Shown here one piece after another: positions 1-44,048 of a stretch of DNA of 45,197 nt. The stretch's first letter is position 1. Every line of letters begins with the position of its first letter. The notes below the pieces were generated by a model. It was given only the letters and a program-made list of their open reading frames with translations. It was not told where the DNA came from and made no database searches. The translations under genes were made by a program, and so were the position numbers. Source of the DNA: Escherichia phage PhiNW-E1; sequence record PQ476011.1. One strand, written 5' to 3'.

Positions 1-300
1 GTGAGCGTACACAATAAACATGCAGCTACGGAAGACGAGGTTGGCATTCTACATGGTGCTATTACCAAAATCTTTAATAAGAAAGCACAGGCAATACTGG
101 ACACTATAGAAGAAGACCCAGATGCAGCACTGCATTTAGTCTCTGGTAAAGACATTGGAGCTATGTGTAAGTGGGTTCTTGATAATGGTATTACCGCTAC
201 ACCCGCTGCACAGCAGGAAGAGTCCAAGTTATCTAAGCGCCTCAAGGCTATCCGAGAGGCATCCAGTGGTAAGATAATTCAATTCACTAAGGATGAGTAA
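1..300 (+). CDS. Terminase small subunit (T7 gp18-like); start may be the GTG at position 1 if the window is circularly closed
   Basis: 99-codon ORF ending TAA 298-300, directly upstream of the large terminase; C-terminal region resembles T7 gp18 from memory; GGAGGAGGA at 45186-45194 would serve as RBS for GTG at 1 across the junction. Confidence 0.55.
   Translation: MSVHNKHAATEDEVGILHGAITKIFNKKAQAILDTIEEDPDAALHLVSGKDIGAMCKWVLDNGITATPAAQQEESKLSKRLKAIREASSGKIIQFTKDE
92..114 (+). promoter_or_regulatory. Phage RNAP promoter-like sequence inside the small terminase ORF
   Basis: AATACTGGACACTATAGAAGAAG matches the recurrent 23-bp promoter consensus except at -16/-15. Confidence 0.4.
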
Positions 301-745
301 TATGTATAGATGGTATGAATCTCAAGGTTATACCATCTTACCTTCAGGTGTCATCCTTTCCAAGGGTGGCACACCTCTCAAACCTTTTAAGGCGGGTAGT
401 GGTTATTTAGCAGTTAAGCTTAAAAACAAAGAAGGTAAATGGCGTAACGTCTATGTACATCAATTAGTGGCTTATAAGTATTTACCTAAAACAGGTAATG
501 AAATAAATCACAAAGACGGTAATAAGCACAATAATAATGTTAGTAACTTAGAGTGGGTAACAAGAAGTGAAAATAATTATTTAAAATGCAATGGAAATGA
601 TAGGAGTGCCTTAAATAAATACTTAGCAGTATTAAAGGATTGCTTCTTGCAAGGTAAGAGTATAGCAGAAACAGCTAGACTTACTGGTAAAAGTGAACCG
701 AGAGTTTCTTCTATCTTTAAGGAGTGGCGAAATGGCAAAGGCTAG
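293..745 (+). CDS. HNH homing endonuclease (free-standing, between terminase subunit genes)
   Basis: 150 aa; HNH motif region VHQLVAYKY...NHKDGNKHNNNVSNLEWVTRSEN; C-terminal HTH-like segment; paralog of ORF 15186-15602. Confidence 0.75.
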   Translation: MSNMYRWYESQGYTILPSGVILSKGGTPLKPFKAGSGYLAVKLKNKEGKWRNVYVHQLVAYKYLPKTGNEINHKDGNKHNNNVSNLEWVTRSENNYLKCNGNDRSALNKYLAVLKDCFLQGKSIAETARLTGKSEPRVSSIFKEWRNGKG

Positions 746-1898
746 AGAATCACAGGCAGAAGCATTAAAGAGGTGGGAAAACCTTAAGGAGCTGCAAGAC
801 ACTTTTAAATATACAGCGGAAGGTTTGCTTCTCTTTGCAGATACAGTTATTCATAACTTAATTGCAGGCAACCCCCATCTGATTCGTATGCAGGCGGATA
901 TCTTGAAGTTCCTATTTTACGGACACAAGTACCGCCTCATCGAAGCGCCCCGTGGTATCGCTAAGACAACACTATCAGCAATCTATACGGTATTCCGTAT
1001 TATTCATGAACCGCATAAGCGTATCATGGTTGTGTCCCAAAACGCCAAGCGAGCAGAGGAAATCGCAGGTTGGGTAGTTAAAATCTTCCGTGGCTTAGAC
1101 TTTCTTGAGTTTATGCTGCCGGATATCTACGCTGGGGACCGTGCATCCGTTAAGGCGTTTGAGATTCATTACACCCTACGTGGCAGTGACAAGTCGCCTT
1201 CTGTGTCTTGTTACTCAATCGAAGCAGGTATGCAGGGTGCGCGTGCAGATATCATCCTAGCAGATGACGTTGAGTCAATGCAGAATGCTCGTACAGCGGC
1301 AGGACGTGCCTTGCTTGAGGAACTGACCAAGGAGTTTGAATCTATTAACCAGTTTGGTGATATTATCTACCTTGGTACTCCTCAGAACGTAAACTCTATC
1401 TACAATAACCTACCTGCTCGTGGTTACTCTGTTCGTATCTGGACTGCACGTTATCCCTCAGTGGAGCAGGAGCAATGCTATGGTGACTTCCTTGCACCTA
1501 TGATTGTGCAGGATATGAAGGACAACCCCGCACTTCGCTCAGGGTACGGGTTGGATGGTAATAGTGGTGCACCTTGTGCCCCTGAAATGTATGATGATGA
1601 AGTCCTGATTGAGAAGGAAATCTCGCAGGGTGCGGCTAAGTTCCAGCTTCAGTTCATGCTTAACACTCGCATGATGGATGCTGACCGCTATCCGCTACGC
1701 CTGAACAACCTCATCTTCACTTCATTCGGTACAGAGGAAGTCCCTGTGATGCCTACATGGAGCAACGACTCTATTAACATCATTGGCGATGCACCGAAGT
1801 ATGGCAATAAGCCTACAGACTTTATGTATCGCCCTGTGGCCCGACCGTATGAATGGGGCGCTGTCACCCGTAAAATTATGTACATTGACCCCGCTGGT
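732..1898 (+). CDS. Terminase large subunit, exon 1 (ATPase domain through ...KIMYIDPAG)
   Basis: RBS TTAAGGAGTG 718-727 then ATG 732; ORF runs to a stop at 1947-1949 but homology to T7 gp19 stops near YIDPAG; exon end at T1898 inferred from P1 pairing GCTGGT(1893-1898)/GCCAGC(1909-1914). Confidence 0.75.
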
Positions 1899-2644
1899 AA
1901 ACACCTCTGCCAGCGTAAAACCCTCTTAATTCGGTGGAACTCTCACTGAGACAATACCGAGCGAAGCCTGTTGCAATAACAGGAACGTGTAGAGACTAAC
2001 TGTAAGGCCAAGCGGTCTGAAACAGAGGGAGGCGCAAGCCTAAGATATAGTCCGACCTACTAGGTGACTAGTAGAAGTTAAAGTAGCGAATTAACGTAAC
2101 AATTGAAGGGAGTTAAATATGACAGAGCATAAAGTTTATCATATTCGTGTTGTTGGTGAAACTGATGTAATGCAAGGTTATATTGGTGTAACCTCCGATA
2201 TTAAGAAGCGTATGAGAGAGCACAAGTGTGCAGGCCGTCTTTGTGATGGCCGCGAGTACGTTATCTTATTCACTGGTAGCAAAGAAGAGTGTTATGCACT
2301 AGAAGAGAAGCTACGCCCACATGACAACATGTGTTGGAATAAGGGTAAAGGTGGTTATCGCAAAGCAGGTAACATCGAGAAAGGTGAACGCATAAGTATT
2401 GCCACTGAAATCAAGAAAGGACAGCACTTGTCTGTTGCCACTGAGTTCAAGAAAGGCATGACACCTTACAACAAAGGTACTGGCAAAGATTACATATTCA
2501 CTTCTCCAGATGGTGAAGAGTTTCTTGTAACTTGCATTACTGACTTCTGTAAAGAGCACAACCTAACACCTCAGAATATGCGTAAGGTGGCACGTGGTTT
2601 ACGTAAACACCACAAGGGTTGGCTCGCACGTCACGTTCAAACCG
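1899..2644 (+). mobile_element. Group I intron (IA-like core) carrying a homing endonuclease ORF
   Basis: P-like AATTCGGTGGAA 1928-1939; Q-like AATACCGAGC 1953-1962; R-like GTGTAGAGACTAAC 1987-2000; S AAGATATAGTCC 2041-2052; P3 CCCTCT 1921-1926 with AGAGGG 2024-2029; P7 GACTA/TAGTC; omega G at 2644; P10 CCTCT 1904-1908 with GGAGG 2645-2649. Confidence 0.7.
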
Positions 2645-2652
2645 GGAGGTAA
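2119..2652 (+). CDS. GIY-YIG homing endonuclease with NUMOD-like repeats, intron-encoded
   Basis: 177 aa; N-terminal KVYHIRVV...GYIGVT (GIY-YIG-like); repeated IATEIKKGQH / VATEFKKGMTPYNKG segments; RBS AGGGA 2106-2110; stop TAA 2650-2652 lies 8 nt into exon 2. Confidence 0.7.
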   Translation: MTEHKVYHIRVVGETDVMQGYIGVTSDIKKRMREHKCAGRLCDGREYVILFTGSKEECYALEEKLRPHDNMCWNKGKGGYRKAGNIEKGERISIATEIKKGQHLSVATEFKKGMTPYNKGTGKDYIFTSPDGEEFLVTCITDFCKEHNLTPQNMRKVARGLRKHHKGWLARHVQTGR

Positions 2653-3376
2653 GAATGGGGATGAAACGGGTGTGGCTATCGTCTTCCTGCACGGCACATT
2701 CATTTACGTGTATCAGTGCTTCGGTGTGCCAGGCGGATACCGTGAATCGTCCCTGAATCGCATTGTGCAGGCCGCAAAGCAGGCGGGTGTTAAAGAGGTA
2801 TTCATTGAGAAGAACTTTGGTCATGGCGCGTTTGAGGCCGTTATAAAGCCATACTTTGAACGAGAGTGGCCTGTAACTCTGGAAGAGGATTACGCCACAG
2901 GACAGAAAGAGTTGCGTATCATTGAGACGCTGGAGCCACTCATGGCGGCGCACAGGCTCATCTTCAATGCCGAGATGGTCAAGTCTGACCTTGAGTCAGT
3001 ACAGCACTATCCACTTGAACTACGCATGTCCTACAGTCTTTTCAATCAAATGTCGAACATCACGATTGAGAAGAACAGCCTCCGGCACGATGACCGCCTA
3101 GACGCCCTGTATGGCGCTATACGGCAATTAACTTCTCAGATAGACTATGACGAGGTTACACGGATTAATCGCCTCAGAGCGCAGGAGATGCGCGATTACA
3201 TCCATGCTATGAATACACCTCATCTACGCAGGGCAATGCTATATGGAGATTACGGTACTGAGCGAAGAGTGACCAACACTTCCGTAGCGATGCAGCAGCG
3301 AGTTTACGGGCAGAACTACCGAAATAAATCGGCAAGCAGAAATACACTTTCTGCAAGGATTTCAAGGACTTATTAA
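2645..3376 (+). CDS. Terminase large subunit, exon 2 (nuclease domain, begins GGKNGDETGVAIV)
   Basis: Frame continues from exon 1 when 1899-2644 is removed, giving ...YIDPAG|GGKNGDETG..., comparable to the T7 gp19 segment DPSGRGKDETG as I recall it; the ORF-track Met at 2594 is intronic. Confidence 0.75.
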   Translation, partial: GGKNGDETGVAIVFLHGTFIYVYQCFGVPGGYRESSLNRIVQAAKQAGVKEVFIEKNFGHGAFEAVIKPYFEREWPVTLEEDYATGQKELRIIETLEPLMAAHRLIFNAEMVKSDLESVQHYPLELRMSYSLFNQMSNITIEKNSLRHDDRLDALYGAIRQLTSQIDYDEVTRINRLRAQEMRDYIHAMNTPHLRRAMLYGDYGTERRVTNTSVAMQQRVYGQNYRNKSASRNTLSARISRTY

Positions 3377-5481: not shown

Positions 5482-5548
5482 GCACTGCTTTTCGCGCAAC
5501 TTTTCTTAAAGGTTATCATGATGGTAGCCTTTCAGAAAAGGAGGTTAC

Positions 5549-7984
5549 ATGATTCAAAGACTAGGTTCTTCATTAGTTAAATTCAAGAGTAAAATAGCAG
5601 GTGCAATCTGGCGTAACTTGGATGACAAGCTCACCGAGGTTGTATCGCTTAAAGATTTTGGAGCCAAAGGTGATGGTAAGACAAACGACCAAGATGCAGT
5701 AAATGCAGCGATGGCTTCAGGTAAGAGAATTGACGGTGCTGGTGCTACTTACAAAGTATCATCTTTACCTGATATGGAGCGATTCTATAACACCCGCTTC
5801 GTATGGGAACGTTTAGCAGGTCAACCTCTTTACTATGTGAGTAAAGGTTTTATCAATGGTGAACTCTATAAAATCACGGATAACCCTTATTACAATGCTT
5901 GGCCTCAAGACAAGGCGTTTGTATATGAGAATGTGATATATGCACCCTACATGGGTAGCGACCGTCATGGTGTTAGTCGTCTGCATGTATCATGGGTTAA
6001 GTCTGGTGACGATGGTCAAACATGGTCTACTCCAGAGTGGCTAACTGATCTGCATCCAGATTACCCTACAGTGAACTATCATTGTATGAGTATGGGTGTA
6101 TGTCGCAACCGTCTGTTTGCCATGATTGAAACACGTACTTTAGCCAAGAACGCACTAACCAATTGTGCATTGTGGGATCGCCCTATGTCTCGTAGTCTGC
6201 ATCTTACTGGTGGTATCACTAAGGCTGCAAATCAGAAATATGCAACAATCCATGTACCTGATCACGGACTATTCGTGGGCGATTTTGTTAACTTCTCTAA
6301 TTCTGCGGTAACAGGTGTATCAGGTGATATGACTGTTGCAACGGTAATAGATAAGGACAACTTCACGGTTCTTACACCTAACCAGCAGACTTCAGATTTG
6401 AATAACGCTGGAAAGAGTTGGCACATGGGTACTTCTTTCCATAAGTCTCCATGGCGTAAGACAGATCTTGGTCTAATCCCTAGTGTCACAGAGGTGCATA
6501 GCTTTGCTACTATTGATAACAATGGCTTTGTTATGGGCTATCATCAAGGTGATGTAGCTCCACGAGAAGTTGGTCTTTTCTACTTCCCTGATGCTTTCAA
6601 TAGCCCATCTAATTATGTTCGTCGTCAGATACCAGCTGAGTATGAACCAGATGCGGCAGAGCCATGCATCAAGTACTATGACGGTGTATTATACCTTATC
6701 ACTCGTGGTACTCGTGGCGACCAACTAGGAAGCTCTTTGCATCGTAGTAGAGATATAGGTCAGACTTGGGAGTCACTTAGATTTCCACATAATGTTCATC
6801 ATACTACCTTACCTTTTGCTAAAGTAGGAGATGACCTTATTATGTTTGGTTCAGAACGTGCAGAAAATGAATGGGAAGCAGGTGCACCAGATGATCGTTA
6901 CAAGGCATCTTATCCTCGTACCTTCTATGCACGATTGAATGTAAACAATTGGAATGCAGATGATATTGAATGGGTTAACATCACAGACCAAATCTATCAA
7001 GGTGACATTGTGAACTCTAGTGTAGGTGTAGGTTCTGTTGTAGTTAAAGACAGCTACATTTACTATATCTTTGGTGGTGAAAACCATTTCAACCCAATGA
7101 CTTATGGTGACAACACAGATAAAGACCCATTTAAAGGTCATGGACACCCTACTGATATATACTGCTATAAGATGCAGATTGCAAATGACAATCGTGTATC
7201 TCGTAAGTTTACATATGGTGCAACTCCTGGTCAGGCTATACCTACTTTCATGGGTACTGATGGAATACGAAATATCCCTGCACCTTTGTATTTCTCAGAT
7301 AACATTGTTACAGAGGATACTAAAGTTGGACACTTAACACTTAAAGCAAGCACAAGTTCCAATATACGATCTGAAGTGCAGATGGAAGGTGAATATGGCT
7401 TTATTGGCAAGTCTGTTCCAAAGGACAACCCAACTGGTCAACGTTTGATTATTTGTGGTGGAGAAAAGACTTCGTCATCTTCAGGTGCACAGATAACTTT
7501 GCACGGCTCTAATTCAAGTAATGCTAAGCGTATCACTTATAACGGAAATGAGCACCTATTCCAAGGTGCACCAATCATGCCTGCTGTAGATAACCAGTTT
7601 GCTGCTGGTGGACCTAGTAACCGATTCACTACCATCTACATAGGTAGTGACCCTGTTACAACTTCAGATGCTGACCACAAGTACGGTATCTCTGGTATTA
7701 ATACCAAGGTGTTAAAGGCTTGGAGCGGGGTTGGTTTTAAACAGTATGGTTTGAATAGTGAAGCAGAGAGGAACCTTGATAGCATACACTTCGGTGTCTT
7801 GGCTCAGGATATTGTAGCTGCTTTTGAAGCTGAAGGGTTAGATGCCATTAAGTATGGAATTGTGTCCTTCGAAGAAGGTAGGTACGGTGTGAGATATAGT
7901 GAAGTTCTAATCCTAGAGGCTGCCTATACTCGCCATCGTCTTGATAAATTAGAGGAGATGCATGCCACTAATAAAATCAGTTAA
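5549..7984 (+). CDS. Tailspike, endo-N-acetylneuraminidase (endosialidase) type with C-terminal chaperone-like region
   Basis: 811 aa; RBS AAAAGGAGG; lacks a T7 gp17-like N-terminal adaptor domain; length and overall sequence recall the K1E/K1-5 endosialidase (from memory, unverified). Confidence 0.75.
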   Translation: MIQRLGSSLVKFKSKIAGAIWRNLDDKLTEVVSLKDFGAKGDGKTNDQDAVNAAMASGKRIDGAGATYKVSSLPDMERFYNTRFVWERLAGQPLYYVSKGFINGELYKITDNPYYNAWPQDKAFVYENVIYAPYMGSDRHGVSRLHVSWVKSGDDGQTWSTPEWLTDLHPDYPTVNYHCMSMGVCRNRLFAMIETRTLAKNALTNCALWDRPMSRSLHLTGGITKAANQKYATIHVPDHGLFVGDFVNFSNSAVTGVSGDMTVATVIDKDNFTVLTPNQQTSDLNNAGKSWHMGTSFHKSPWRKTDLGLIPSVTEVHSFATIDNNGFVMGYHQGDVAPREVGLFYFPDAFNSPSNYVRRQIPAEYEPDAAEPCIKYYDGVLYLITRGTRGDQLGSSLHRSRDIGQTWESLRFPHNVHHTTLPFAKVGDDLIMFGSERAENEWEAGAPDDRYKASYPRTFYARLNVNNWNADDIEWVNITDQIYQGDIVNSSVGVGSVVVKDSYIYYIFGGENHFNPMTYGDNTDKDPFKGHGHPTDIYCYKMQIANDNRVSRKFTYGATPGQAIPTFMGTDGIRNIPAPLYFSDNIVTEDTKVGHLTLKASTSSNIRSEVQMEGEYGFIGKSVPKDNPTGQRLIICGGEKTSSSSGAQITLHGSNSSNAKRITYNGNEHLFQGAPIMPAVDNQFAAGGPSNRFTTIYIGSDPVTTSDADHKYGISGINTKVLKAWSGVGFKQYGLNSEAERNLDSIHFGVLAQDIVAAFEAEGLDAIKYGIVSFEEGRYGVRYSEVLILEAAYTRHRLDKLEEMHATNKIS

Positions 7985-8113: not shown

Positions 8114-8961
8114 AGGTTAATATCTTAGTGTACACAAGGGCAGACTTAGGTTTGCTCTTAGTGTAATCCAAGGAGGTAACATGCAAGAGGAGAATTGGGA
8201 TGTGTAATGTTGGATATGGAGAAGGTTGAACCTTAGTGTTGTACAAGGATTAACCAAAGTAAAAATTTTGATATAGGCGTGTGTGAGGTGTCTCGCCCTC
8301 GCCCTCGCCGGATTTCCCCCATATGGGGCCGCGCTGCGGTTGGCTTGGGAATTGGGCTAGGCTGGTCCGTCTTCGACGGGTGGCCTAGGGCTTGCCGAAG
8401 TCTGCTCTTAGTGGCTGCACAAGGAGAACGCCTAGGAAGCGCTAGGGCACGCCTTAGTATTGGACAAGGTGATTGCCTTAGTGCAACCGCTTAGGGCTTA
8501 CACAGGCCGTTTTAGGGCCATTCCTGAGCATTTGACAGGGTGAGCGTGGGTTGGCTATCTGTTCGTTTCGCTCCACTACGTTACGCTACACTCACCGCGC
8601 TTGTGTACCTTAGGTTATTCCTTGATGGATAGCTTAGGTTAGCCTTAGTGGACTACCTTAGTTAAAGCCTTAGTGCTTAGCTTAGTATCAGCTTAGTAGT
8701 GTACCTTAGTCAGACTTAGTGTCTTCTCTTAGTGATTGCACATGCAAGCATGTAAGATGCCATTAGGTCGCGGTCGGTAGACCGCTAAAGAAAGAGAATA
8801 GTAATAAGATGCAGTAGGAGGAACACCAGAAACCTAGCCAACCTAGTCTATCCTAGCTCTGTATCTATTGCTTTCCTTAGTCTCACATGTTAGACAACCT
8901 ATGTTTATCTTAGTAGTTGTGACATGTATCACATAAATAATCTATCTTAGTGAAACTTAGT
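8114..8961. repeat. Array of about 25 CTTAGT-type short direct repeats in an ORF-poor region (presumed genome terminus / packaging region)
   Basis: Five longer units CTTAGTR-N4-6-CAAGG at 8114-8129, 8147-8163, 8232-8248, 8407-8424, 8458-8474; a GC-rich island at about 8285-8600 holds CTCGCC x3 (8292-8309) and palindrome CCCCCATATGGGG (8316-8328). Confidence 0.6.
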
Positions 8962-8962
8962 G

Positions 8963-8991
8963 TTGACATAGGCAATCAACTGGTATACATT
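8963..8991 (+). promoter_or_regulatory. Host sigma70-type early promoter
   Basis: TTGACA 8963-8968, 17-bp spacer, TACATT 8986-8991. Confidence 0.5.
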
Positions 8992-9838: not shown

Positions 9839-9867
9839 TTGACAACCACGGCATACAAGGTTACATT
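9839..9867 (+). promoter_or_regulatory. Host sigma70-type promoter
   Basis: TTGACA 9839-9844, 17-bp spacer, TACATT 9862-9867; same -10 context (TACATTA) as the 8963 promoter. Confidence 0.45.
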
Positions 9868-10284: not shown

Positions 10285-10329
10285 GAAAGATAAGGCTGGC
10301 ACTAGCCAGCCTATCAAGGCACAAGCCAC

Positions 10330-10342
10330 GCTCTTTAACAAT
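10330..10342 (+). promoter_or_regulatory. Conserved motif GCTCTTTAACAAT, copy 4
   Basis: Preceded by hairpin GGCTGGC-ACTA-GCCAGCC (10294-10311); lies in the leader of the ocr-like gene. Confidence 0.4.
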
Positions 10343-10438
10343 ATGGGTAGTCGCTTCTTAGTCTGGATAGGTTAAACCTAGGAGATTCTCTTGAGTCTCC
10401 TATAATGTAACCTAACTAACTAAATGAGGATTAATAAC

Positions 10439-10795
10439 ATGGCTATGTCTAATAAGACTTACTCTCAGGTTTACAACACCGCTCATGCTGCATTAGTTGA
10501 ACGTATCTGGGATGATGCTATTGATTGTATCGATAACGCACATGATGCAATCCATGAGGTGGCGGATAGTGCTGTACCAATCTATTATGCTGACACCTTC
10601 TCGGTGATGGCCAGTGAAGGCATCGACCACTTCTTCGAGGATTCTGGCTTAATGCCAGACACTAAGGATGTGACGGTCGTACTACAAGCCCGTATTTATG
10701 AACAACTCACCATTGATTTATGGGAACGTGTTCAAGATATGATTGATGCGTACATCGATTCCGCTGAGGATTCAGAAGAAGAGGAGGAAGAATAA
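10439..10795 (+). CDS. ocr: Ocr-like DNA mimic, anti-restriction protein (T7 gp0.3 homolog)
   Basis: 118 aa; MAMSNKTY...[60 protein letters not shown] plus poly-Glu tail matches T7 Ocr as I recall it; RBS GAGGA 10425-10429. Confidence 0.8.
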
Positions 10796-10797
10796 AG

Positions 10798-10911
10798 ATG
10801 GAAAGGCAATATAACTTCATCTTCTCAGACGGTGTAACCCTGAAATGTTCCTTACGATTTGCGCAGATTCGTGAGGAAGTACTAGGAACTACATACAAGC
10901 TATTTAGCTGA
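10798..10911 (+). CDS. Small hypothetical protein (37 aa)
   Basis: Hand-translated; starts 3 nt after the ocr stop; no clear RBS. Confidence 0.3.
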   Translation: MERQYNFIFSDGVTLKCSLRFAQIREEVLGTTYKLFS

Positions 10912-10924
10912 CACTATAAGAGAA
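10902..10924 (+). promoter_or_regulatory. Variant phage promoter-like sequence
   Basis: ATTTAGCTGACACTATAAGAGAA; resembles the SP6-type ATTTAGGTGACACTATAG but has A at the +1 position. Confidence 0.35.
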
Positions 10925-10986: not shown

Positions 10987-11214
10987 ATGGATTTAGATAG
11001 CATCATTATGGCATTTGCTCTTATTGGCTTAAGCTGGTGCTCCTATCACCTTTACCGTGAGTTCTTATTTGATAAAGCTAAACGCAAACTAAGAAAGGAA
11101 GGCGGTAATTACCTTTGTATAAGAGGTGGCTTAGTCGAATACATTGCACCTAACGGCATGGAGTGCGCCATTAACAAAGATGCATTTATAGAGACGTGGC
11201 ATTACATCAAGTAG
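10987..11214 (+). CDS. Early hypothetical membrane protein
   Basis: 75 aa; N-terminal TMD IIMAFALIGLSWCSY. Confidence 0.5.
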   Translation: MDLDSIIMAFALIGLSWCSYHLYREFLFDKAKRKLRKEGGNYLCIRGGLVEYIAPNGMECAINKDAFIETWHYIK

Positions 11215-12226: not shown

Positions 12227-14854
12227 ATGCAAGACCTACACGCTATTCAACTTCAACTTGAAGAAGAAATGTTTAACGGCGGTATCCGTCGCTTTGAAGC
12301 GGACCAACAACGCCAGATTGCATCCGGTAATGAATCAGACACGGCATGGAATCGCCGTTTATTGTCCGAGTTAATCGCGCCAATGGCTGAAGGTATTCAG
12401 GCATACAAGGAAGAGTATGAAGGTAAAAGAGGCCGTGCACCGCGTGCATTAGCTTTCATTAACTGCGTAGAAAACGAAGTGGCAGCATATATCACGATGA
12501 AAATCGTTATGGATATGCTGAATACAGACGTTACCTTACAAGCAATCGCTATGAATGTAGCGGACCGCATCGAAGACCAAGTACGTTTTAGCAAGCTGGA
12601 AGGTCACGCAGCTAAGTACTTTGAGAAAGTGAAGAAGTCGCTTAAGGCTAGCAAGACTAAATCTTATCGTCATGCGCACAACGTAGCGGTAGTAGCTGAG
12701 AAATCTGTTGCTGACCGTGACGCGGATTTCTCCCGTTGGGAGGCATGGCCTAAAGATACCTTGCTACAAATCGGTATGACCTTGCTAGAAATACTGGAAA
12801 ATAGTGTATTCTTCAATGGTCAGCCTGTCTTTCTTCGCACCTTGCGCACTAATGGTGGCAAGCATGGCGTTTACTACTTACAGACCAGTGAACACGTAGG
12901 GGAATGGATTACAGCATTTAAAGAACATGTAGCGCAACTTAGCCCGGCTTATGCACCTTGCGTTATACCTCCTCGTCCGTGGGTTTCTCCTTTTAATGGC
13001 GGTTTTCACACTGAGAAGGTAGCAAGTCGTGTGCGTCTTGTTAAAGGCAGCCGTGAACACGTCCGCAAGCTGACCAAAAAGCAAATGCCAGCGGTTTACA
13101 AGGCTGTTAACGCTTTGCAGGCGACTAAATGGCAGGTTAACAAGGAAGTTTTACAGGTTGTTGAGGACGTAATACGGCTTGATTTAGGCTATGGCGTACC
13201 TTCCTTCAAACCACTCATCGACCGCGAGAACAAGCCAGCTAATCCGGTGCCGTTAGAGTTCCAGCACCTGCGAGGCCGTGAACTGAAAGAAATGTTAACA
13301 CCGGAACAATGGCAAGCCTTCATCAACTGGAAAGGTGAATGCACCAAGCTGTATACCGCTGAGACTAAGCGCGGCAGCAAATCGGCGGCGACCGTCCGCA
13401 TGGTAGGGCAGGCCCGTAAATACAGCCAATTTGACGCAATATACTTCGTGTATGCTCTGGACAGCCGCAGCCGCGTCTACGCGCAATCTAGCACGCTCTC
13501 TCCGCAATCAAACGACTTAGGCAAGGCATTGCTCCGTTTTACCGAAGGGCAGCGTCTTGATAGCGCTGAGGCGCTTAAGTGGTTTTTGGTGAACGGGGCT
13601 AATAACTGGGGTTGGGATAAGAAAACTTTTGACGTGCGCACCGCTAACGTGCTGGATAGTGAATTTCAAGACATGTGCCGCGACATTGCAGCGGATCCGC
13701 TGACCTTCACTCAATGGGTAAATGCCGACTCCCCTTACGGCTTCCTTGCATGGTGCTTTGAATATGCGCGTTATCTGGATGCACTGGATGAAGGCACGCA
13801 AGACCAATTCATGACGCACCTCCCAGTCCATCAAGATGGTAGTTGTTCTGGTATCCAGCACTACAGTGCTATGCTACGCGATGCAGTAGGTGCGAAAGCG
13901 GTAAACCTTAAGCCCTCTGACTCACCTCAAGATATTTATGGTGCCGTTGCGCAGGTAGTAATTCAGAAGAATTATGCATACATGAATGCAGAGGATGCGG
14001 AAACCTTCACTTCTGGCAGCGTGACTTTAACAGGTGCAGAACTTCGTAGCATGGCTAGTGCGTGGGATATGATAGGAATCACTCGCGGCCTGACCAAAAA
14101 GCCTGTAATGACACTACCTTATGGCAGCACACGTCTAACCTGCCGTGAATCAGTGATTGATTATATCGTTGATTTGGAAGAAAAAGAGGCCCAACGGGCT
14201 ATTGCGGAAGGGCGTACCGCCAATCCTGTACATCCTTTTGATAATGACCGCAAAGACAGCCTGACACCTAGCGCAGCTTATAACTATATGACAGCTTTAA
14301 TCTGGCCTTCTATTTCGGAAGTGGTTAAAGCTCCTATAGTGGCAATGAAAATGATTCGTCAGCTTGCACGTTTCGCAGCTAAAAGAAACGAAGGCTTAGA
14401 ATATCCCTTACCAACTGGCTTCATCTTGCAACAAAAGATAATGGCTACCGATATGCTCCGCGTATCCACTTGCTTGATGGGTGAAATCAAGATGAGTCTC
14501 CAGATTGAAACAGATGTAGTTGATGAAACGGCAATGATGGGTGCGGCTGCCCCTAACTTCGTCCATGGTCACGATGCTAGCCACCTGATTCTGACTGTAT
14601 GTGACCTAGTGGATAAAGGTATTACATCCATTGCAGTCATCCATGATTCTTTCGGTACTCATGCAGGACGTACCGCAGACCTGCGGGATAGCTTAAGGGA
14701 AGAAATGGTTAAGATGTATCAAAACCATAATGCCCTGCAAAACCTGCTAGATGTGCACGAAGAGCGTTGGTTAGTAGACACCGGAATCCAAGTACCAGAG
14801 CAAGGAGAGTTTGACCTTAACGAAATCTTAGTTTCAGACTATTGTTTCGCATAA
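12227..14854 (+). CDS. Single-subunit DNA-dependent RNA polymerase (T7 gene 1 family)
   Basis: 875 aa; RBS AGGAG; C-terminal ...AVIHDSFGT...ILVSDYCFA matches the T7 RNAP C-terminus (HDSFGT motif C, FAFA-type end). Confidence 0.95.
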
Positions 14855-14862
14855 TATTAATA

Positions 14863-14893
14863 GGCCATTCCTTAGGGAGTGGCCTTTTTCTTT
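14863..14893 (+). terminator. Intrinsic terminator after the RNAP gene
   Basis: GGCCATTCC-TTAG-GGAGTGGCC 9-bp stem (one G-U) followed by TTTTTCTTT. Confidence 0.6.
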
Positions 14894-14928: not shown

Positions 14929-14944
14929 GTCTCACATGTGAGAC
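14929..14944. repeat. 16-bp perfect palindrome GTCTCACATGTGAGAC, copy 1
   Basis: One of six copies; 3 bp upstream of promoter 14947. Confidence 0.7.
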
Positions 14945-14946
14945 TT

Positions 14947-14969
14947 ATTTACCGGACACTATAGGATAG
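14947..14969 (+). promoter_or_regulatory. Phage RNAP promoter
   Basis: TATTTACCGGACACTATAGGATAG; +1 G at 14964. Confidence 0.65.
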
Positions 14970-15119: not shown

Positions 15120-15135
15120 GTCTCACATGTGAGAC
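15120..15135. repeat. 16-bp palindrome GTCTCACATGTGAGAC, copy 2
   Basis: Immediately upstream of promoter-like 15141. Confidence 0.7.
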
Positions 15136-15140
15136 TTCGT

Positions 15141-15163
15141 ATTTACCGGACAGTATAGATAAG
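15141..15163 (+). promoter_or_regulatory. Variant phage promoter (C to G at -5)
   Basis: ATTTACCGGACAGTATAGATAAG; tandem with promoter 14947 across an AT-rich repeat region. Confidence 0.45.
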
Positions 15164-15185: not shown

Positions 15186-15602
15186 ATGCGTAAATCATTA
15201 GCTCAAAGAGTAGAGCAAGCAGGTTATACTATACAAGACGACGGTACTATCAAAGGTAGGCGAGGTAACATCTTGAAACCTTGGCTTCAATCTTCAGGTT
15301 ATCCAGTTGTAAATATAGTATTCAAGAAAGGTACAAGGACAACTACCCTTGTGCATCGCATAATTGCTAGTAAGTATTGTCCTTGCTCTGACCCGTTGGC
15401 TAATGATGTAAACCACAAAGACGGAATCAAGACTAATAATGCAGCTTCTAATCTTGAATGGATTACACGTAGGCAGAACCGTAATCACTATTTAGGTTTT
15501 GAGGACTATATGACACTTACGGCAGATGATGCCCGTAAGAAGAATAATGAGCGCACTATTGCTCGACGTAAATTACTTAAACAGTTGAATAATAAGGACT
15601 AA
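15186..15602 (+). CDS. HNH homing endonuclease (free-standing)
   Basis: 138 aa; RBS GGAGG; VHRIIASKY...NHKDGIKTNNAASNLEWITRRQN; paralog of 293-745. Confidence 0.75.
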   Translation: MRKSLAQRVEQAGYTIQDDGTIKGRRGNILKPWLQSSGYPVVNIVFKKGTRTTTLVHRIIASKYCPCSDPLANDVNHKDGIKTNNAASNLEWITRRQNRNHYLGFEDYMTLTADDARKKNNERTIARRKLLKQLNNKD

Positions 15603-15604
15603 TT

Positions 15605-15736
15605 ATGCGTACTAACTTCGAAAAGATGACCCGTAAGGCTAACCGTTTTGACATGGAAGAAGGGCAGAAGAAAGGCAAGAAGCTGAATAAACCTGTCCGT
15701 GACCGTGCATCTAAACGCGCTGCGTGGGAGTTCTAA
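15605..15736 (+). CDS. Small basic protein, T7 gp1.1-like
   Basis: 43 aa, hand-translated (MRTNFEKMTRKANRF...KLNKPVRDRASKRAAWEF); resembles T7 gp1.1 as I recall it. Confidence 0.6.
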   Translation: MRTNFEKMTRKANRFDMEEGQKKGKKLNKPVRDRASKRAAWEF

Positions 15737-15739
15737 GTT

Positions 15740-17728
15740 ATGGCTATTATTCAGAATGTACCGTGTCCTGCCTGTCAAAAGAATGGACACGATAAATCCG
15801 GCAATCATCTCATGATATTTGATGATGGTGCTGGCTATTGTAACCGTGGTCATTTCCACGATAACGGCAAGCCTTACTATCATAAGCCAGATGGTGGCAT
15901 CGAGATCACCGAGTTGCCTATTACTGGCAATATCAAATATACACCTTCTCAATTCAAAGAGATGGAGAAGGAAGGGAAGATAAGCGACCCTAAGTTACGC
16001 GCCATCGCACTTGGTGGCATGCGTATGAAAGACCGATGGGAGGTCATGAATGAGCAAGAAAGGGCAGACCAAGAAGCAGAGTGGAAACTTGATGTTGAAT
16101 GGTTCCTCACGCTTAAGCGTAAGAATCTTGTTTCCCGACACATTCGCGGCGACATTTGCGCATTGTATGATGTACGTGTCGGACACGATGAAGATGGTAG
16201 AGTCTCACGGCATTACTATCCACGCTTCGAGAAAGGTGAGCTAGTAGGCGCTAAGTGTCGCACATTACCTAAAGACTTTAAGTTTGGTCATTTAGGTAAA
16301 CTCTTTGGTATGCAAGATCTTTTCGGTATGAATACCTTGTCTCACGTGTTAGACAAGGGAAGACGAAAGGATTGCTTGCTTATTGTGGGCGGCGAACTGG
16401 ATGCACTAGCAGCACAGCAAATGCTCCTTGATTCTGCCAAGGGTACTAAGTGGGAAGGCCAGCCTTACCATGTATGGTCTGTCAATAAAGGTGAGTCTTG
16501 CCTTGAAGAGATAGTACAGAACCGTGAACACATCGCCCAATTTAAGAAGATTATATGGGGTTTTGATGGCGACGAGGTGGGGCAGAAGCAGAATCAGCAA
16601 GCGGCTCGCCTGTTTCCTGGCAAATCCTATATCCTTGAATACCCTTCTGGTTGCAAAGATGCTAACAAGGCATTGATGGCTGGCAAGGCTAAAGAGTTTG
16701 TTGATGCTTGGTTTAATGCCAAGTCATCTGATGAAGTCTTTGGTAGCCAGATTAAATCTATCGCATCTCAAAGGGATAAGCTCAAGGCTGCACGTCCAGA
16801 GCAAGGGTTATCATGGCCTTGGCCTAAGCTGAACAAGGTAACGCTAGGTATTCGTAAGAACCAGCTTATCATTGTAGGTGCAGGCTCTGGTGTAGGTAAG
16901 ACTGAGTTCCTTCGCGAAGTGGTTAAGCACCTCATTGAAGAGCACGGTGAATCTGTAGGCATCATTTCTACAGAAGACCCGATGGTCAAGGTGTCCCGTG
17001 CTTTTATCGGTAAGTGGATTGATAAGCGTATTGAGTTACCGCCAACCAACGACCCGAAAGAAGACGGATACCGTGAGGTGTTCGACTACACCGAGGAAGA
17101 AGCTAACGCTGCCATTGATTATGTGGCTGATACAGGAAAGCTATTTGTGGCTGACCTAGAGGGTGACTATTCGATGGAGAAGGTAGAGCAAACTTGCCTA
17201 GAGTTTGAGGCTATGGGTATTTCTAATATCATCATTGATAACTTAACGGGGATTAAATTAGATGAGCGTGCTTTTGGTGGGAAGGTTGGTGCACTTGATG
17301 AATGCGTCAAACGAATTGGTACTATCAAAGACCGACATGCGGTTACGATTTTCCTTGTCTCTCACCTTACACGTCCTCCGGCAAACCGTACCCAACACGA
17401 AGAAGGTGGCGAAGTTATCCTTTCTGACTTCCGAGGCTCAGGCGCTATCGGATTCTGGGCATCTTACGCCTTGGGGATTGAGCGTAATACAAGAGCTGAA
17501 ACGCTTGATGAAAGGACTACCACGTACATCTCTTGTGTCAAAGACCGCGACCAAGGTATCTACACAGGAACCAAAGTCATGCTCAAGGGTGACATTCAGA
17601 CCGGACGCTTGAGAGAACCACAAGCTAGAACAAGGTCGTTTGATACAGGCGAAGCAAGGCAACAAGAAGTACCGGATTTACCGGACACTATAGAAGAGAC
17701 AACATTTGACGATGAACAGGAGTTTTAA
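15740..17728 (+). CDS. DNA primase/helicase (T7 gp4 family)
   Basis: 662 aa; N-terminal Cys zinc motif CPACQKNGHD...CNRGH; Walker A GAGSGVGKT; acidic C-terminal tail ending DDEQEF. Confidence 0.9.
   Translation: MAIIQNVPCPACQKNGHDKSGNHLMIFDDGAGYCNRGHFHDNGKPYYHKPDGGIEITELPITGNIKYTPSQFKEMEKEGKISDPKLRAIALGGMRMKDRWEVMNEQERADQEAEWKLDVEWFLTLKRKNLVSRHIRGDICALYDVRVGHDEDGRVSRHYYPRFEKGELVGAKCRTLPKDFKFGHLGKLFGMQDLFGMNTLSHVLDKGRRKDCLLIVGGELDALAAQQMLLDSAKGTKWEGQPYHVWSVNKGESCLEEIVQNREHIAQFKKIIWGFDGDEVGQKQNQQAARLFPGKSYILEYPSGCKDANKALMAGKAKEFVDAWFNAKSSDEVFGSQIKSIASQRDKLKAARPEQGLSWPWPKLNKVTLGIRKNQLIIVGAGSGVGKTEFLREVVKHLIEEHGESVGIISTEDPMVKVSRAFIGKWIDKRIELPPTNDPKEDGYREVFDYTEEEANAAIDYVADTGKLFVADLEGDYSMEKVEQTCLEFEAMGISNIIIDNLTGIKLDERAFGGKVGALDECVKRIGTIKDRHAVTIFLVSHLTRPPANRTQHEEGGEVILSDFRGSGAIGFWASYALGIERNTRAETLDERTTTYISCVKDRDQGIYTGTKVMLKGDIQTGRLREPQARTRSFDTGEARQQEVPDLPDTIEETTFDDEQEF
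17676..17698 (+). promoter_or_regulatory. Phage RNAP promoter embedded in the 3' end of the primase/helicase gene
   Basis: GATTTACCGGACACTATAGAAGAG; +1 G at 17693. Confidence 0.65.
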
Positions 17729-27584: not shown

Positions 27585-27635
27585 AGGGTAGGTATTAGCT
27601 TACCCTTGATTGTATAGTGAATGGAGGAATTAATT

Positions 27636-28106
27636 ATGTCAAAGATTTATATTGGCGAATACGTCGTACGCCGTGCAGCTTACCGAGATGCCTTCTGGAA
27701 TAAACTGTGTGAAAGCCTAGGCAAGAAACCAGATGGGGTATTCAAAGTATCCCGTGCAGAACCTAATTATAACTCTATTATGTTAGAAGGTGTTGAGAAG
27801 CGCGAATGGTATGCACCTTACTTCAAGGTTGTTGACTCATTGCAAGATGAAGATCCTAGCACGTTGGACAACAATATGGTTACTAAGCCTAAGCACTATG
27901 AGTTCTTCGATGGGGTAGAGGCAATCACTATCATTGCTCGTAGTATGACCGAGAAGCAATTTGCTGGATATTGCATGGGTAATGCTTTGAAGTATCGTCT
28001 GCGTGCAGGGAAGAAATTCAACACGGAAGAAGATCTGAAGAAAGCAGACTACTACAAAGAGCTATTCCAGAAGCATCGTCACGAATGTATTGATGAGGAT
28101 ATTTAA
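27636..28106 (+). CDS. Hypothetical protein
   Basis: 156 aa from ATG 27636 (RBS GGAGGA 27623-27628). Confidence 0.55.
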   Translation: MSKIYIGEYVVRRAAYRDAFWNKLCESLGKKPDGVFKVSRAEPNYNSIMLEGVEKREWYAPYFKVVDSLQDEDPSTLDNNMVTKPKHYEFFDGVEAITIIARSMTEKQFAGYCMGNALKYRLRAGKKFNTEEDLKKADYYKELFQKHRHECIDEDI

Positions 28107-43800: not shown

Positions 43801-44048
43801 TTCTACCTTCTGAGTTAGTACAATCCCGTTATGAGGCTGGCTTTCAGACTAAGGGTTTGATAGACCAAATACCACTAGTAGGTGTTGGTCAAGATGCATA
43901 TCGTTTAGCAGATTCTATAACTAAATATGCAGAGGGTGATACAGAAGGTGTAGATGTGGCACGTAGGGCTTTACGCTTAGTGCCTCTAACTAATGTAATA
44001 GGAATCCAGAACGCATTGCGTTATGGCTTAGATGAACTGGAGGATTGA
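40851..44048 (+). CDS. Large internal virion (ejection) protein
   Basis: 1065 aa; RBS GGAGGA 40842-40847; size and position match the largest core protein of T7-group phages. Confidence 0.7.
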   Translation: MEQDIKTNWAGYVQSTPEPFSIEAAPVSAPTIRQRNELQEQVLEAKADADILGAVGAAFQNEWLAFGGKRWYDRATADFTPQPDFEIQPEQREALRFKYGTDMMQTITEGVRSEDELNFRIQNADEDLERNKRIAQAGWAGSVATIGAAVLDPVGWVASIPTGGAAKVGLVGRAVRGAIAAGVSNAAIESVLVQGDMTRDLDDIMVALGSGMAMGGVIGAVARGRATKLSEQGDDRAASVVRSADAGDRYVRAVADDSIGAMRVKGAEVLTEGAFDISSKGEDLLKTLQREGNAIDMTPRRWAGTMSALGTVVHSSQDASVRGLGARLFESPQGLGAQKASASLMQNINLNRLKSADMNRFNDGFDLWLKENNINPVAGHTNSHYVQQYNEKVWEAVRIGMDESTPKSIRMAAEGQQAMYREALALRKRSGEVGFENIKADDKYMPDIFDTMKARRQFDRIGKDIDKEDIIELFSRAYQNGARKIPKEVADEIARAQVNRVADATLTGQLSFEKAMSGQTKAEYEAIMRKAGLSDEEIEKMVEALDNKETRDNISNRAKMSLGLDVTQEYNGLRMRDFMNTNVEELTDNYMKEAAGGAALARQGFSTYQAALNAIDLVERNARNAAKGSKASLALDEEIRQMREGLRLIMGKSIDADPQAISTKMMRRGRDITGVLRLGQMGFAQLGELANFMGEFGVAATTMALGKQFRFTSKALRNGDGFFRDKNLAEVERMVGYIGEDNWLTTKGARPDEFGDVTTVRGMMAHFDQSMNSIRRAQTNLSLFRMAQGSLERMTNRQIALSFIDHLEGKKIIPQKKLEELGLTQEFMTNLQKHYDANSKGSGLLGFDTMPYAMGETLANAIRRKSGLIIQRNFIGDEGIWMNKALGKTFAQLKSFSLVSGEKQFGRGIRHDKIGLAKKTAYGFALGSIVYAAKAYVNSIGREDQDEYLEEKLSPKGLAFGAMGMMSTTAVFSLGGDFLGGLGVLPSELVQSRYEAGFQTKGLIDQIPLVGVGQDAYRLADSITKYAEGDTEGVDVARRALRLVPLTNVIGIQNALRYGLDELED

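What the first reader, a model, noticed from the sequence alone, without database searches (positions are those of the whole stretch)
10439..10795. Ocr-like DNA mimic and gp1.1-like gene: T7-type early region on an SP6-type backbone
ORF 10439-10795 matches the T7 Ocr antirestriction protein along most of its length, including the acidic tail, and ORF 15605-15736 matches T7 gp1.1. The promoters (GACACTATAGAAG core), the adaptor-plus-tailspike arrangement and the late-gene order are SP6/K1E-like. This suggests a mosaic early region and predicts resistance to type I restriction-modification and possibly BREX.
Basis: partly seen in the sequence, partly recalled or inferred. Interest (0 to 1): 0.5.

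Follow-up and report, generated by a model that had tools for sequence, protein, structure and literature searches.

The report
Ocr antirestriction gene in K1E-like phage
The ORF is a real, intact homologue of the phage T7 Ocr protein, a DNA mimic that blocks host restriction enzymes, but SP6/K1E-type phages normally carry this gene and it is already annotated in dozens of near-identical genomes, so the finding is correct but ordinary.

Summary
ORF 10439-10795 encodes a 118-aa protein that matches Pfam 'ocr' (E 5e-40) and solved T7 Ocr end to end (63% identity). It keeps the extreme acidity, the dimer-interface residues and the fold (model TM up to 0.94 against eight solved Ocr chains). ORF 15605-15736 is a gp1.1 homologue.

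The window is a complete, circularly permuted Vectrevirus (K1E-like) genome, 94% identical to reference K1E.

The 'T7-type early region on an SP6 backbone' reading does not hold as stated. SP6, K1E and K1-5 all carry ocr and gene 1.1 at the same positions, and no other T7 early gene is present. 45 phage records hold this ocr allele at 89% identity or more, mostly annotated as Ocr. SP6 Gp5 has been shown experimentally to inhibit BREX.

One part of the mosaic idea survives. The ocr ORF alone is a swapped cassette: its flanks are 90-100% identical to reference K1E, but the ORF is only 45-68% identical in DNA and 48% in protein. Ocr allele classes also do not follow the RNA polymerase backbone across Autographiviridae.

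Verdict: already known, low interest. The most likely function is DNA mimicry that inhibits type I restriction-modification and BREX.

The parts
10439..10795 (+). ocr gene (118 aa plus stop): DNA-mimic antirestriction protein, 'class W' allele
   Evidence: Pfam PF08684 E 4.9e-40. Solved T7 Ocr E 3.1e-40 over the full length. AlphaFold model pLDDT 89.4, matching only T7 Ocr chains at rmsd 1.1-1.9 A. 29 Asp/Glu against 5 Lys/Arg.
10348..10433 (+). Structured mRNA leader directly upstream of ocr: a long irregular hairpin whose 3' side runs into the Shine-Dalgarno sequence (GAGGA, 10426-10430). It may be an RNase III-type processing or translation signal, and it is the conserved upstream edge of the swapped cassette.
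   Evidence: Fold of 10290-10445 gives -54.8 kcal/mol, z = -4.9, with 0 of 200 shuffles folding as well. The leader is conserved across SP6-like loci that carry different ocr alleles; the lower stem is invariant and 4 upper-stem pairs show compensatory changes. No Rfam family matches it. Its function was not tested.
8963..8991 (+). Candidate host sigma-70 early promoter (TTGACA-17-TACATT) near the genome's left end
   Evidence: 10 of 12 consensus match. This is a consensus match only; the number of such sites in the region is not above the shuffle expectation.
9839..9867 (+). Second candidate host sigma-70 early promoter (TTGACA-17-TACATT), 570 nt upstream of ocr
   Evidence: 10 of 12 consensus match. 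Consensus match only.
10798..10911 (+). Conserved 37-aa ORF (K1E gp4 homologue) starting 3 nt after the ocr stop codon; it marks the downstream edge of the cassette
   Evidence: phrog_11746 E 5.7e-30. 100% nucleotide identity to K1E from about 10797 onward. The same 37-aa gene follows ocr in L066 and L067.
12227..14854 (+). SP6/K1E-type single-subunit RNA polymerase gene. ocr lies upstream of it, so it is in the early, host-transcribed block.
   Evidence: 875 aa. 32% identical to T7 RNAP. RNAPs of Vectrevirus-type loci are 96-100% identical to it, and SP6's is 85% identical.
14862..14885 (+). Intrinsic-terminator-like hairpin followed by a T-run, directly after the RNAP gene (end of the early unit)
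   Evidence: 10-bp stem with 6 GC pairs, followed by TTTTTCTTT.
14948..14964 (+). Phage-type promoter (TTTACCGGACACTATAG), the first of two upstream of gene 1.1; positionally like T7 phi1.1A
   Evidence: Exact match to the promoter pattern; sequence read.
15142..15158 (+). Second phage-type promoter (TTTACCGGACAGTATAG); positionally like T7 phi1.1B
   Evidence: One mismatch; sequence read.
15605..15736 (+). Gene 1.1 homologue: a 43-aa basic protein of unknown function
   Evidence: PF08200 E 3.5e-15. phrog_2490 E 7.9e-18. It differs from K1E gp8 by a single inserted residue and is otherwise identical; 54% identical to T7 gp1.1.

Best explanation
ORF 10439-10795 is the ocr (gene 0.3-type) gene of a K1E-like Vectrevirus. 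It lies in the block upstream of the phage RNA polymerase gene, so the host polymerase should transcribe it early in infection. That timing is inferred from position, from two sigma-70-like sites, and from the absence of a good phage promoter between the genome's left end and the gene. The product is predicted to be a small, all-helical, extremely acidic protein that dimerises through the conserved FSVMAS/L82 hydrophobic patch. It should imitate the shape and charge of about 20-24 bp of bent B-form DNA, as T7 Ocr does. By occupying the DNA-binding grooves of type I restriction-modification enzymes and of the BREX methyltransferase PglX/BrxX, it would stop both restriction and modification of the incoming genome. 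It probably also binds host RNA polymerase. Shown here: homology, fold, charge and conservation of interface residues, synteny, and purifying selection. Inferred: dimerisation, target binding and the phenotype. Evolutionarily, the gene sits in the standard SP6-type position but is a replaceable cassette. This genome carries one of at least three deeply diverged Ocr alleles that circulate in otherwise nearly identical Vectrevirus genomes.
For: Sequence matches: Pfam ocr E 4.9e-40, PHROG ocr-like E 1.1e-47, and T7 Ocr in the PDB at E 3.1e-40, gap-free over the full length. Fold: the AlphaFold2 model built with a 56-sequence alignment has pLDDT 89.4 and pTM 0.82. Its only significant PDB matches are eight T7 Ocr chains, free or bound to BrxX, PglX, AriA, RNAP and a type I methyltransferase, with target-normalised TM 0.89-0.94 and rmsd 1.1-1.9 A. 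Charge and key residues: 24 of 34 T7 acidic positions are kept and 4 are gained, giving net charge about -24 against -28 for T7. Loop 2 is identical at 16 of 18 positions with 6 of 7 acidic residues. Five of the six Ocr residues that form salt bridges to PglX are kept (D35, D42, D62, D76, E109; R79 becomes V) (with residues from PMC11341690). Dimer and AriA-interface residues F54, A58 and L82 are invariant across the five reference Ocr proteins (residue roles from PMC7261183 and PMC10802264). The literature reports that 14-17 acidic residues suffice for activity (PMC4872106), and this protein has 29. Selection: dN/dS is 0.04-0.13 for the well-diverged class W pairs. Type I target sites are not depleted (EcoKI 4 against 4.7 expected, EcoBI 6 against 5.8, EcoAI 5 against 4.8), whereas GATC is strongly depleted (36 against 170). 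That pattern fits reliance on an inhibitor rather than on site avoidance. Experimental precedent: SP6 Gp5 fully inhibits Salmonella BREX, and SP6 gp5 is cited as the reason SP6 grows regardless of type I systems (PMC4837284). Cassette exchange.
Against: No experiment bears on this particular allele. The N-terminal third (helix A and loop 1) is only 9 of 28 identical to T7 and has lost D12, E16, D26, D29 and D32. It has gained D24 and D28, so loop 1 has 4 acidic residues instead of 5, at shifted positions. R79, a PglX contact, is Val. The window copy has a private I53T change next to F54 at the dimer interface, which the sampled class W, T7 and SP6 copies do not show. The early promoters are only consensus matches, and their number is not above chance.
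Confidence: 0.9

Rival explanations
1. One reading: the early region is a T7-derived module grafted onto an SP6-type backbone, so ocr and gene 1.1 mark a recent inter-subfamily mosaic specific to this genome.
For: Ocr (66%), gp1.1 (54%) and the C-terminus of the gp1.7-like protein (61%) are much more similar to T7 than RNAP, DNAP, portal, terminase and tail proteins are (25-35%). This ocr allele is closer to T7 Ocr (63%) than to K1E or K1-5 gp3 (48%).
Against: SP6, K1E and K1-5 all carry both genes at the same positions. 45 Vectrevirus-sized records carry this allele. No other T7 early gene is present. There is no nucleotide-level similarity to T7 anywhere in the region. Gene 1.1 differs from K1E gp8 by one inserted residue and follows the backbone phylogeny. 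Class W alleles were found only alongside Vectrevirus-type RNAPs.
Confidence: 0.04
2. The protein's main role in this phage is host take-over by binding E. coli RNA polymerase, as T7 Ocr also does, and antirestriction is secondary or lost.
For: T7 Ocr binds RNAP and competes with sigma (structures 6R9B and 6R9G; PMC7064336 listed). The model superposes on the RNAP-bound Ocr chains. This phage lacks a gp0.7 kinase homologue, so another early host-shutoff factor would be useful.
Against: The features needed for R-M and BREX inhibition (charge, loop 2, dimer interface) are the best-conserved parts of the protein. SP6 Gp5 inhibits BREX. The two roles are not mutually exclusive.
Confidence: 0.1
3. 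The gene is a decaying or neutral remnant with no current function.
For: The acidic tail varies in length, and in one relative (L010) the stop codon is lost so that ocr fuses to the next ORF. Ocr can be a liability where PARIS, Ronin or EcoR22I sense it.
Against: The ORF is intact in all 45 records with this allele. dN/dS is 0.04-0.13 in diverged pairs. The Shine-Dalgarno sequence and leader are conserved. All key residues are retained.
Confidence: 0.02

Closest known systems
T7 gp0.3 (Ocr), Pfam PF08684, PDB 1S7Z
   Same: Same length (118 against 117 aa) with a gap-free alignment and 63% identity. Same four-helix fold, acidic loops, dimer-interface residues (F54, A58, L82) and poly-Glu tail. 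Same genomic logic: an early gene upstream of the phage RNA polymerase gene.
   Different: Helix A and loop 1 are strongly diverged (9 of 28 identical). There are five fewer acidic residues, and R79 is Val. The gene lies about 2.1 kb from the genome end, behind several small ORFs, rather than being the first gene at 0.9 kb. The backbone belongs to a different subfamily (Molineuxvirinae; RNAP 32% identical).
The same allele in other Vectrevirus genomes (e.g. vB_EcoP_KAW1A4500, vB_EcoA_fTuEco01, K1E isolate KY435490, AAPEc6, VEc3, ACG-C91, SHAK7704)
   Same: 96-99% protein identity, the same position and the same flanks. Most records annotate it 'protein Ocr' or 'ocr-like anti-restriction', and the SHAK7704 preprint describes it.
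   Different: Compared with the class W copies sampled from IMG/VR, the window copy has two private substitutions, M6K and I53T.
SP6 Gp5 (NP_853565)
   Same: An Ocr homologue at the equivalent position of an SP6-type genome; 58% identical to the window protein. It has been shown experimentally to inhibit BREX (PMC11341690).
   Different: It belongs to a different allele class: 77% identical to T7 Ocr, but only 58% to this protein.
K1E gp3 / K1-5 gp3 (reference strains)
   Same: The same locus, with the same leader and the same downstream 37-aa gene. The genomes are about 94% identical overall.
   Different: Only 48% protein identity, and 8-10 residues shorter (108-110 aa) with a different N-terminus (MERNANAYY) and a truncated C-terminal helix. 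This allele class also occurs in T7-supergroup phages with Kayfunavirus- and Przondovirus-like RNAPs.
ArdA (plasmid/transposon DNA mimic)
   Same: A functional analogue: an acidic dimeric DNA mimic that inhibits type I R-M.
   Different: Unrelated in sequence and fold. ArdA does not inhibit BREX (PMC7261183). This is a resemblance in mechanism only, not family membership.

Membership tests
Ocr (T7 gp0.3; Pfam PF08684) | Sequence match above the curated family threshold over the whole domain | tested here: met
   136.5 bits against a cut-off of 25, profile positions 1-100 of 101. PHROG 2568 E 1.1e-47.
Ocr (T7 gp0.3; Pfam PF08684) | Colinear full-length similarity to the solved T7 protein | tested here: met
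   1-117 aligned to 1-117 without gaps, E 3.1e-40; 74 of 117 identical.
Ocr (T7 gp0.3; Pfam PF08684) | Ocr fold: helices A-D with two long acidic loops | tested here: met
   AF2 model pLDDT 89.4 with helices at 8-26, 35-45, 50-58 and 78-116. Foldseek matches only T7 Ocr chains, target-normalised TM 0.89-0.94, rmsd 1.1-1.9 A. This is a prediction, not a solved structure.
Ocr (T7 gp0.3; Pfam PF08684) | DNA-like negative charge: a large excess of Asp/Glu, at least about 14-17 acidic residues, and acidic loops 1 and 2 | tested here: met
   29 D/E against 5 K/R, charge about -24. Loop 2 keeps 6 of 7 acidic residues; loop 1 has 4 against 5 in T7, at shifted positions. The threshold comes from PMC4872106 and PMC3439906.
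Ocr (T7 gp0.3; Pfam PF08684) | Hydrophobic dimer interface (F54, A58, L82, numbering with Met1) | tested here: met
   All three residues are present and invariant in alignment A1. The neighbouring I53 is Thr in the window copy. Dimerisation itself cannot be tested with these tools.
Ocr (T7 gp0.3; Pfam PF08684) | Early gene upstream of the phage RNAP gene, transcribed by host RNAP | tested here: inconclusive
   The position is met: ocr lies 1.4 kb upstream of the RNAP gene, and no good phage promoter occurs between the genome end (about 8291) and ocr. The host promoters are consensus matches only.
Ocr (T7 gp0.3; Pfam PF08684) | Binds and inhibits type I R-M enzymes and BREX PglX | not testable with these tools
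   Inferred from homology, and from published tests on T7 Ocr and SP6 Gp5.
T7 gp1.1 (Pfam PF08200) | Sequence match above threshold, and a position downstream of the RNAP gene behind phage promoters | tested here: met
   56.6 bits against a cut-off of 21. Two phage promoters lie at 14948 and 15142, after the terminator at 14862. Here an HNH endonuclease gene is inserted between the promoters and gene 1.1.
'T7-type early region' (genes 0.3-0.7 plus 1.1-1.3 as a block) | Presence of the other T7 early genes (0.4, 0.5, 0.6, 0.7 kinase, 1.2, 1.3 ligase homologue) | tested here: not met
   tblastn of all window ORFs against T7 finds only ocr, RNAP and 1.1 in this region. The neighbouring ORFs fall in SP6/K1E-specific PHROGs of unknown function.
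SP6/K1E-type phage (Molineuxvirinae, Vectrevirus) | SP6-type RNAP and promoters, adaptor plus endosialidase tailspike, and genome-wide similarity to K1E | tested here: met
   94.3% identity to K1E over 42,758 of 45,197 nt. 96-98% identity to SHAK7704 and K1E isolate KY435490. Promoter core found 10 times. Endosialidase domains at E 1e-222.

The most novel reading that the evidence does not exclude
The ocr locus of Vectrevirus phages is a precise, ORF-bounded allele-swap hot spot. At least three deeply diverged Ocr classes (48-70% protein identity) sit between a conserved structured leader and a conserved 37-aa gene, in genomes that are otherwise 94-99% identical. Some classes are shared with T7-supergroup phages whose RNA polymerases are only about 30% identical. 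If the divergence, which is concentrated in helix A and loop 1, reflects diversifying selection, the classes would differ in phenotype. The selective agents could be defences that sense Ocr (PARIS/AriA, Ronin, EcoR22I) or different R-M/BREX targets. The classes would then differ in which defences they inhibit and which they trigger.
Probability: 0.25. Interest if true: 0.4.

Novelty: already known. Interest (0 to 1): 0.1.

Why it matters
The practical value is modest. The result confirms that this K1-capsule-specific phage, of a type used in phage-therapy work, carries an intact broad-spectrum inhibitor of type I R-M and BREX. That inhibitor helps predict host range. It also predicts vulnerability to Ocr-sensing abortive systems such as PARIS. 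The one point that goes beyond existing annotation is that ocr is exchanged as a clean cassette among near-identical genomes and across subfamilies. This makes Vectrevirus a convenient natural panel for asking whether Ocr variants differ in what they inhibit and what they trigger.

Tried and rejected
1. Single-sequence AlphaFold2 gave a poor model (pLDDT 55) and was discarded. The alignment-based model was used instead.
2. blastn of the window against T7 gave no hit in the early region. A recent nucleotide-level transfer from T7 was therefore rejected.
3. Rfam at gathering thresholds has no family for the ocr leader; the only hit in the window is a group I intron elsewhere. The 'RNase III site' label therefore remains an analogy with T7, not a result.
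4. The consensus fold of the leader across 12 loci gave only weak support: -5.8 kcal/mol, an invariant lower stem, and 4 pairs with compensatory changes in a partly misaligned upper stem.
5. The sigma-70 promoter scan was not enriched over shuffles (11 found against 13.5 expected), so promoter assignments are tentative.
6. I considered whether gene 1.1 was horizontally exchanged. This was rejected because its similarity follows the backbone order K1E > SP6 > T7.
7. dN/dS among very close class W pairs (dS below 0.1) rests on 1-10 substitutions and is uninformative. Only pairs with dS of about 0.45-0.5 were used.
8. The original SP6 genome paper (PMC374404) is not held in the library. The statement about SP6 gp5 and type I systems is therefore cited second-hand, from PMC4837284.

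Full report
WHAT THE WINDOW IS

The 45,197-nt window is a complete, circularly permuted genome of a K1E-like podovirus (Autographiviridae, Molineuxvirinae, Vectrevirus).
- Megablast against reference K1E (NC_007637) covers 42,758 nt at 94.3% identity. K1E position 1 corresponds to window position 8291.
- The stretch 8291-8557 matches both ends of K1E, so it is the collapsed terminal repeat.
- The closest records are vB_EcoM_SHAK7704 and a K1E isolate (KY435490), at 97-99% identity.
- The RNA polymerase (12227-14854) is SP6/K1E-type.
- The promoter core GACACTATAGAAG occurs 10 times on the + strand, against 0.11 expected.
- The tailspike (5549-7984) is an endosialidase, and 44045-45010 is the adaptor.

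THE OBSERVATION

ORF 10439-10795 encodes 118 aa.
- It matches Pfam 'DNA mimic ocr' at E 4.9e-40, over essentially the whole profile.
- It matches the PHROG 'ocr-like anti-restriction' at E 1.1e-47.
- It matches solved T7 Ocr at E 3.1e-40 in a gap-free 1-117 to 1-117 alignment, with 74 of 117 residues identical.
- A GAGGA Shine-Dalgarno sequence 8 nt upstream, and the shared MAMSN N-terminus, support the start at 10439 rather than the ATG at 10424.

ORF 15605-15736 matches Pfam 'Bacteriophage 1.1 protein' at E 3.5e-15. Both identifications are far beyond chance.

DOES IT LOOK FUNCTIONAL?

Charge and key residues:
- The protein has 29 Asp/Glu and 5 Lys/Arg, giving a charge of about -24 (T7: 34 and 6, about -28).
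- 24 of the 34 acidic positions of T7 Ocr are kept and 4 new ones are gained.
- Loop 2 is identical at 16 of 18 positions and keeps 6 of its 7 acidic residues. Mutagenesis and directed evolution single this loop out as most important (PMC4872106).
- Loop 1 has 4 acidic residues instead of 5, at shifted positions.
- The literature reports that 14-17 acidic residues are enough for activity.
- The dimer-interface residues F54, A58 and L82 are present and invariant in five reference Ocr proteins. Mutating them weakens dimerisation or abolishes PARIS sensing (PMC7261183; PMC10802264).
- Five of the six Ocr residues that form salt bridges to PglX are conserved; R79 is Val (PMC11341690).

Fold: a single-sequence AlphaFold run was poor (pLDDT 55). 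With a 56-sequence alignment the model reached pLDDT 89.4 and pTM 0.82. Its only significant PDB matches were eight T7 Ocr chains, free or bound to BrxX, PglX, AriA, RNA polymerase and a type I methyltransferase, at rmsd 1.1-1.9 A.

Selection and site counts:
- Among copies of this allele, dN/dS is 0.04-0.13 where divergence is large enough to measure.
- The genome does not avoid type I target sites: EcoKI 4 against 4.7 expected, EcoBI 6 against 5.8, EcoAI 5 against 4.8.
- It strongly avoids GATC: 36 against 170 expected.
- This pattern fits reliance on an inhibitor for type I systems.

EXPRESSION CONTEXT

- ocr lies 2.1 kb from the genome's left end and 1.4 kb upstream of the RNA polymerase gene.
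- Two TTGACA-17-TACATT sites (8963, 9839) are candidate host promoters. The scan as a whole is not enriched over shuffles.
- No good phage promoter precedes the gene.
- Immediately upstream is a long irregular hairpin (about 10348-10433) with z = -4.9 against shuffles. Its 3' side runs into the Shine-Dalgarno sequence.
- This leader is conserved across SP6-like loci carrying different ocr alleles.
- By analogy with the RNase III sites between T7 early genes it may be a processing site. That was not tested, and Rfam has no matching family.
- A terminator-like hairpin (14862-14885) follows the RNA polymerase gene.
- Two phage promoters follow (14948, 15142). Each is preceded by the same 16-nt palindrome. 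They drive an inserted HNH endonuclease gene and then gene 1.1.
- Gene 1.1 is therefore a phage-polymerase-transcribed gene behind a tandem promoter pair, as in T7.

IS THIS A T7-TYPE EARLY REGION ON AN SP6 BACKBONE?

Not as stated.
- SP6 (gp5, gp9), K1E (gp3, gp8) and K1-5 (gp3, gp8) all carry ocr and 1.1 homologues at the same positions. RefSeq annotates them as such.
- tblastn of every window ORF against T7 finds no counterpart of genes 0.4-0.7, 1.2 or 1.3.
- The other early ORFs belong to SP6/K1E-specific families of unknown function.
- The window's gp1.1 differs from K1E gp8 by one inserted residue, and its similarity falls off in backbone order, K1E > SP6 > T7.
- 45 phage records, all about 44-45 kb, carry this ocr allele at 89% protein identity or more, mostly labelled Ocr.
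- The preprint describing the closest relative reports its 'ocr-like anti-restriction' gene. A 2026 paper says the same for other Vectrevirus phages.
- SP6 gp5 was proposed as an antirestriction protein in 2004 (cited in PMC4837284). It has since been shown to abolish Salmonella BREX defence (PMC11341690).

WHAT SURVIVES OF THE MOSAIC IDEA

The ocr ORF is an exchanged cassette.
- Against reference K1E, nucleotide identity is 90-98% up to about 10430 and 90-100% from about 10780 onward. Inside the ORF it is only 45-68%, with no megablast match for 10443-10777.
- The proteins are 48% identical, whereas this protein is 63% identical to T7 Ocr and 58% to SP6 Gp5.
- In 61 IMG/VR loci I compared each Ocr with the RNA polymerase encoded downstream.
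  - The window's class (91% identity or more) occurs only with Vectrevirus-type polymerases.
  - The K1E-type class (75-96% to K1E gp3) occurs with Vectrevirus polymerases. It also occurs with T7-supergroup polymerases that are 62-90% identical to T7's and only about 30% identical to the window's.
  - SP6 Gp5 is 77-79% identical to T7 Ocr, although the polymerases are 32% identical.
- Two further contigs (L066, L067) have polymerases 95-99% identical to the window's. Their Ocr is a third class, 67-70% identical to the window's and 73% to T7's.
- Ocr alleles therefore move between lineages, and within Vectrevirus the locus is multi-allelic.
- This fits the published picture of anti-defence genes sitting in frequently exchanged accessory regions (bioRxiv 10.1101/2023.04.06.535777).
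- It is not a recent import from T7. There is no nucleotide-level similarity to T7, and the nearest outside relatives are only 62-73% identical in protein.

MECHANISM, STATED PLAINLY

- Most likely (about 0.9): an early-expressed, dimeric DNA mimic that binds type I R-M complexes and BREX PglX/BrxX in place of DNA, blocking both restriction and modification. It probably also binds host RNA polymerase.
- Because F54 and L82 are retained, it should also be detectable by PARIS AriA. This is an inference.
- Shown here: homology, predicted fold, charge pattern, interface residues, synteny and purifying selection.
- Inferred: dimerisation, target binding and phenotype.
- Rivals: a genome-specific T7 graft (0.04), a role mainly in host transcription shut-off (0.1, not exclusive), and a decaying gene (0.02).

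VERDICT

The finding is real and correctly identified, but it is already known and already annotated in many relatives. The 'mosaic early region' framing is only partly right. Interest is low (0.1). The one feature worth a note is the clean, ORF-bounded allele replacement at ocr and the incongruence between Ocr class and phage backbone. This could make these phages a natural panel for comparing Ocr variants.

Noticed in passing
window 1826-2074 (+), with ORF 2119-2652: A group I intron (Rfam RF00028, 61 bits, E 3.5e-13) interrupts the terminase large-subunit gene (exon ORFs about 693-1949 and 2594-3376). It is followed by an ORF with weak GIY-YIG and NUMOD hits, probably a homing endonuclease. 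Reference K1E annotates the same arrangement as genes 40A / 40.5 / 40B.
   Followed up: partly
window 15186-15602 (+): An HNH endonuclease gene (Pfam HNH_3, PHROG 959) is inserted between the second phage promoter and gene 1.1. The stretch 15194-15612 has no match in reference K1E. It looks like a free-standing homing endonuclease insertion.
   Followed up: partly
window 293-745 (+): A second HNH endonuclease ORF (HNH_3, E 1.8e-11) lies just upstream of the terminase large-subunit gene. The stretch 294-731 has no match in reference K1E.
   Followed up: partly
window 14929-14944 and 15120-15135: The same 16-nt perfect palindrome, GTCTCACATGTGAGAC, sits just upstream of each of the two phage promoters that precede gene 1.1. 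The promoter module therefore looks duplicated together with a possible hairpin or operator.
   Followed up: no
window 10903-10919 (+): A phage-promoter-like sequence (TTTAGCTGACACTATAAGAG, 3 mismatches to the pattern) lies inside the early region. It overlaps the end of the 37-aa ORF downstream of ocr and is upstream of ORF 10987-11214 and the RNA polymerase gene.
   Followed up: no
whole window: GATC is strongly depleted (36 sites against about 170 expected). The E. coli HS BREX motif GGTAAG is over-represented and strand-biased (38 on +, 9 on -, about 22 expected). Type I sites occur at the expected frequency.
   Followed up: no
window 27621-28106 (+): The gp1.7-like nucleotide kinase ORF has a C-terminal DUF3310 segment that is 61% identical to T7 gp1.7, far above the 25-35% of backbone genes. 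The adjacent stretch 27651-27872 has no match in reference K1E. This may be another exchanged module.
   Followed up: no
window 10439-10795, residues 6 and 53: Compared with the six class W copies sampled from IMG/VR, the window's Ocr has two private substitutions, M6K and I53T. I53T lies next to F54 at the dimer and AriA interface.
   Followed up: partly
L010:1305-1778: In one class W relative the ocr stop codon is lost within the poly-Glu tail. As a result ocr is fused in frame to the downstream 37-aa ORF, giving a 157-aa product.
   Followed up: no
L031:4992-5333 (IMG/VR contig of 141,261 nt) and L032: An Ocr homologue of 113 aa (62% identical to K1E gp3) sits on a 141-kb viral contig with no single-subunit RNA polymerase gene within 4.7 kb. 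It is followed by another very acidic 115-aa ORF (5485-5832). Ocr therefore occurs outside Autographiviridae-sized genomes.
   Followed up: no
window 15736-15757 against K1E 7184-7406: The window lacks K1E gene 8.5 (72 aa) between gene 1.1 and primase/helicase, and resembles K1-5 here. The alignment blocks overlap by 18 nt, which suggests a deletion or insertion between short repeats.
   Followed up: no
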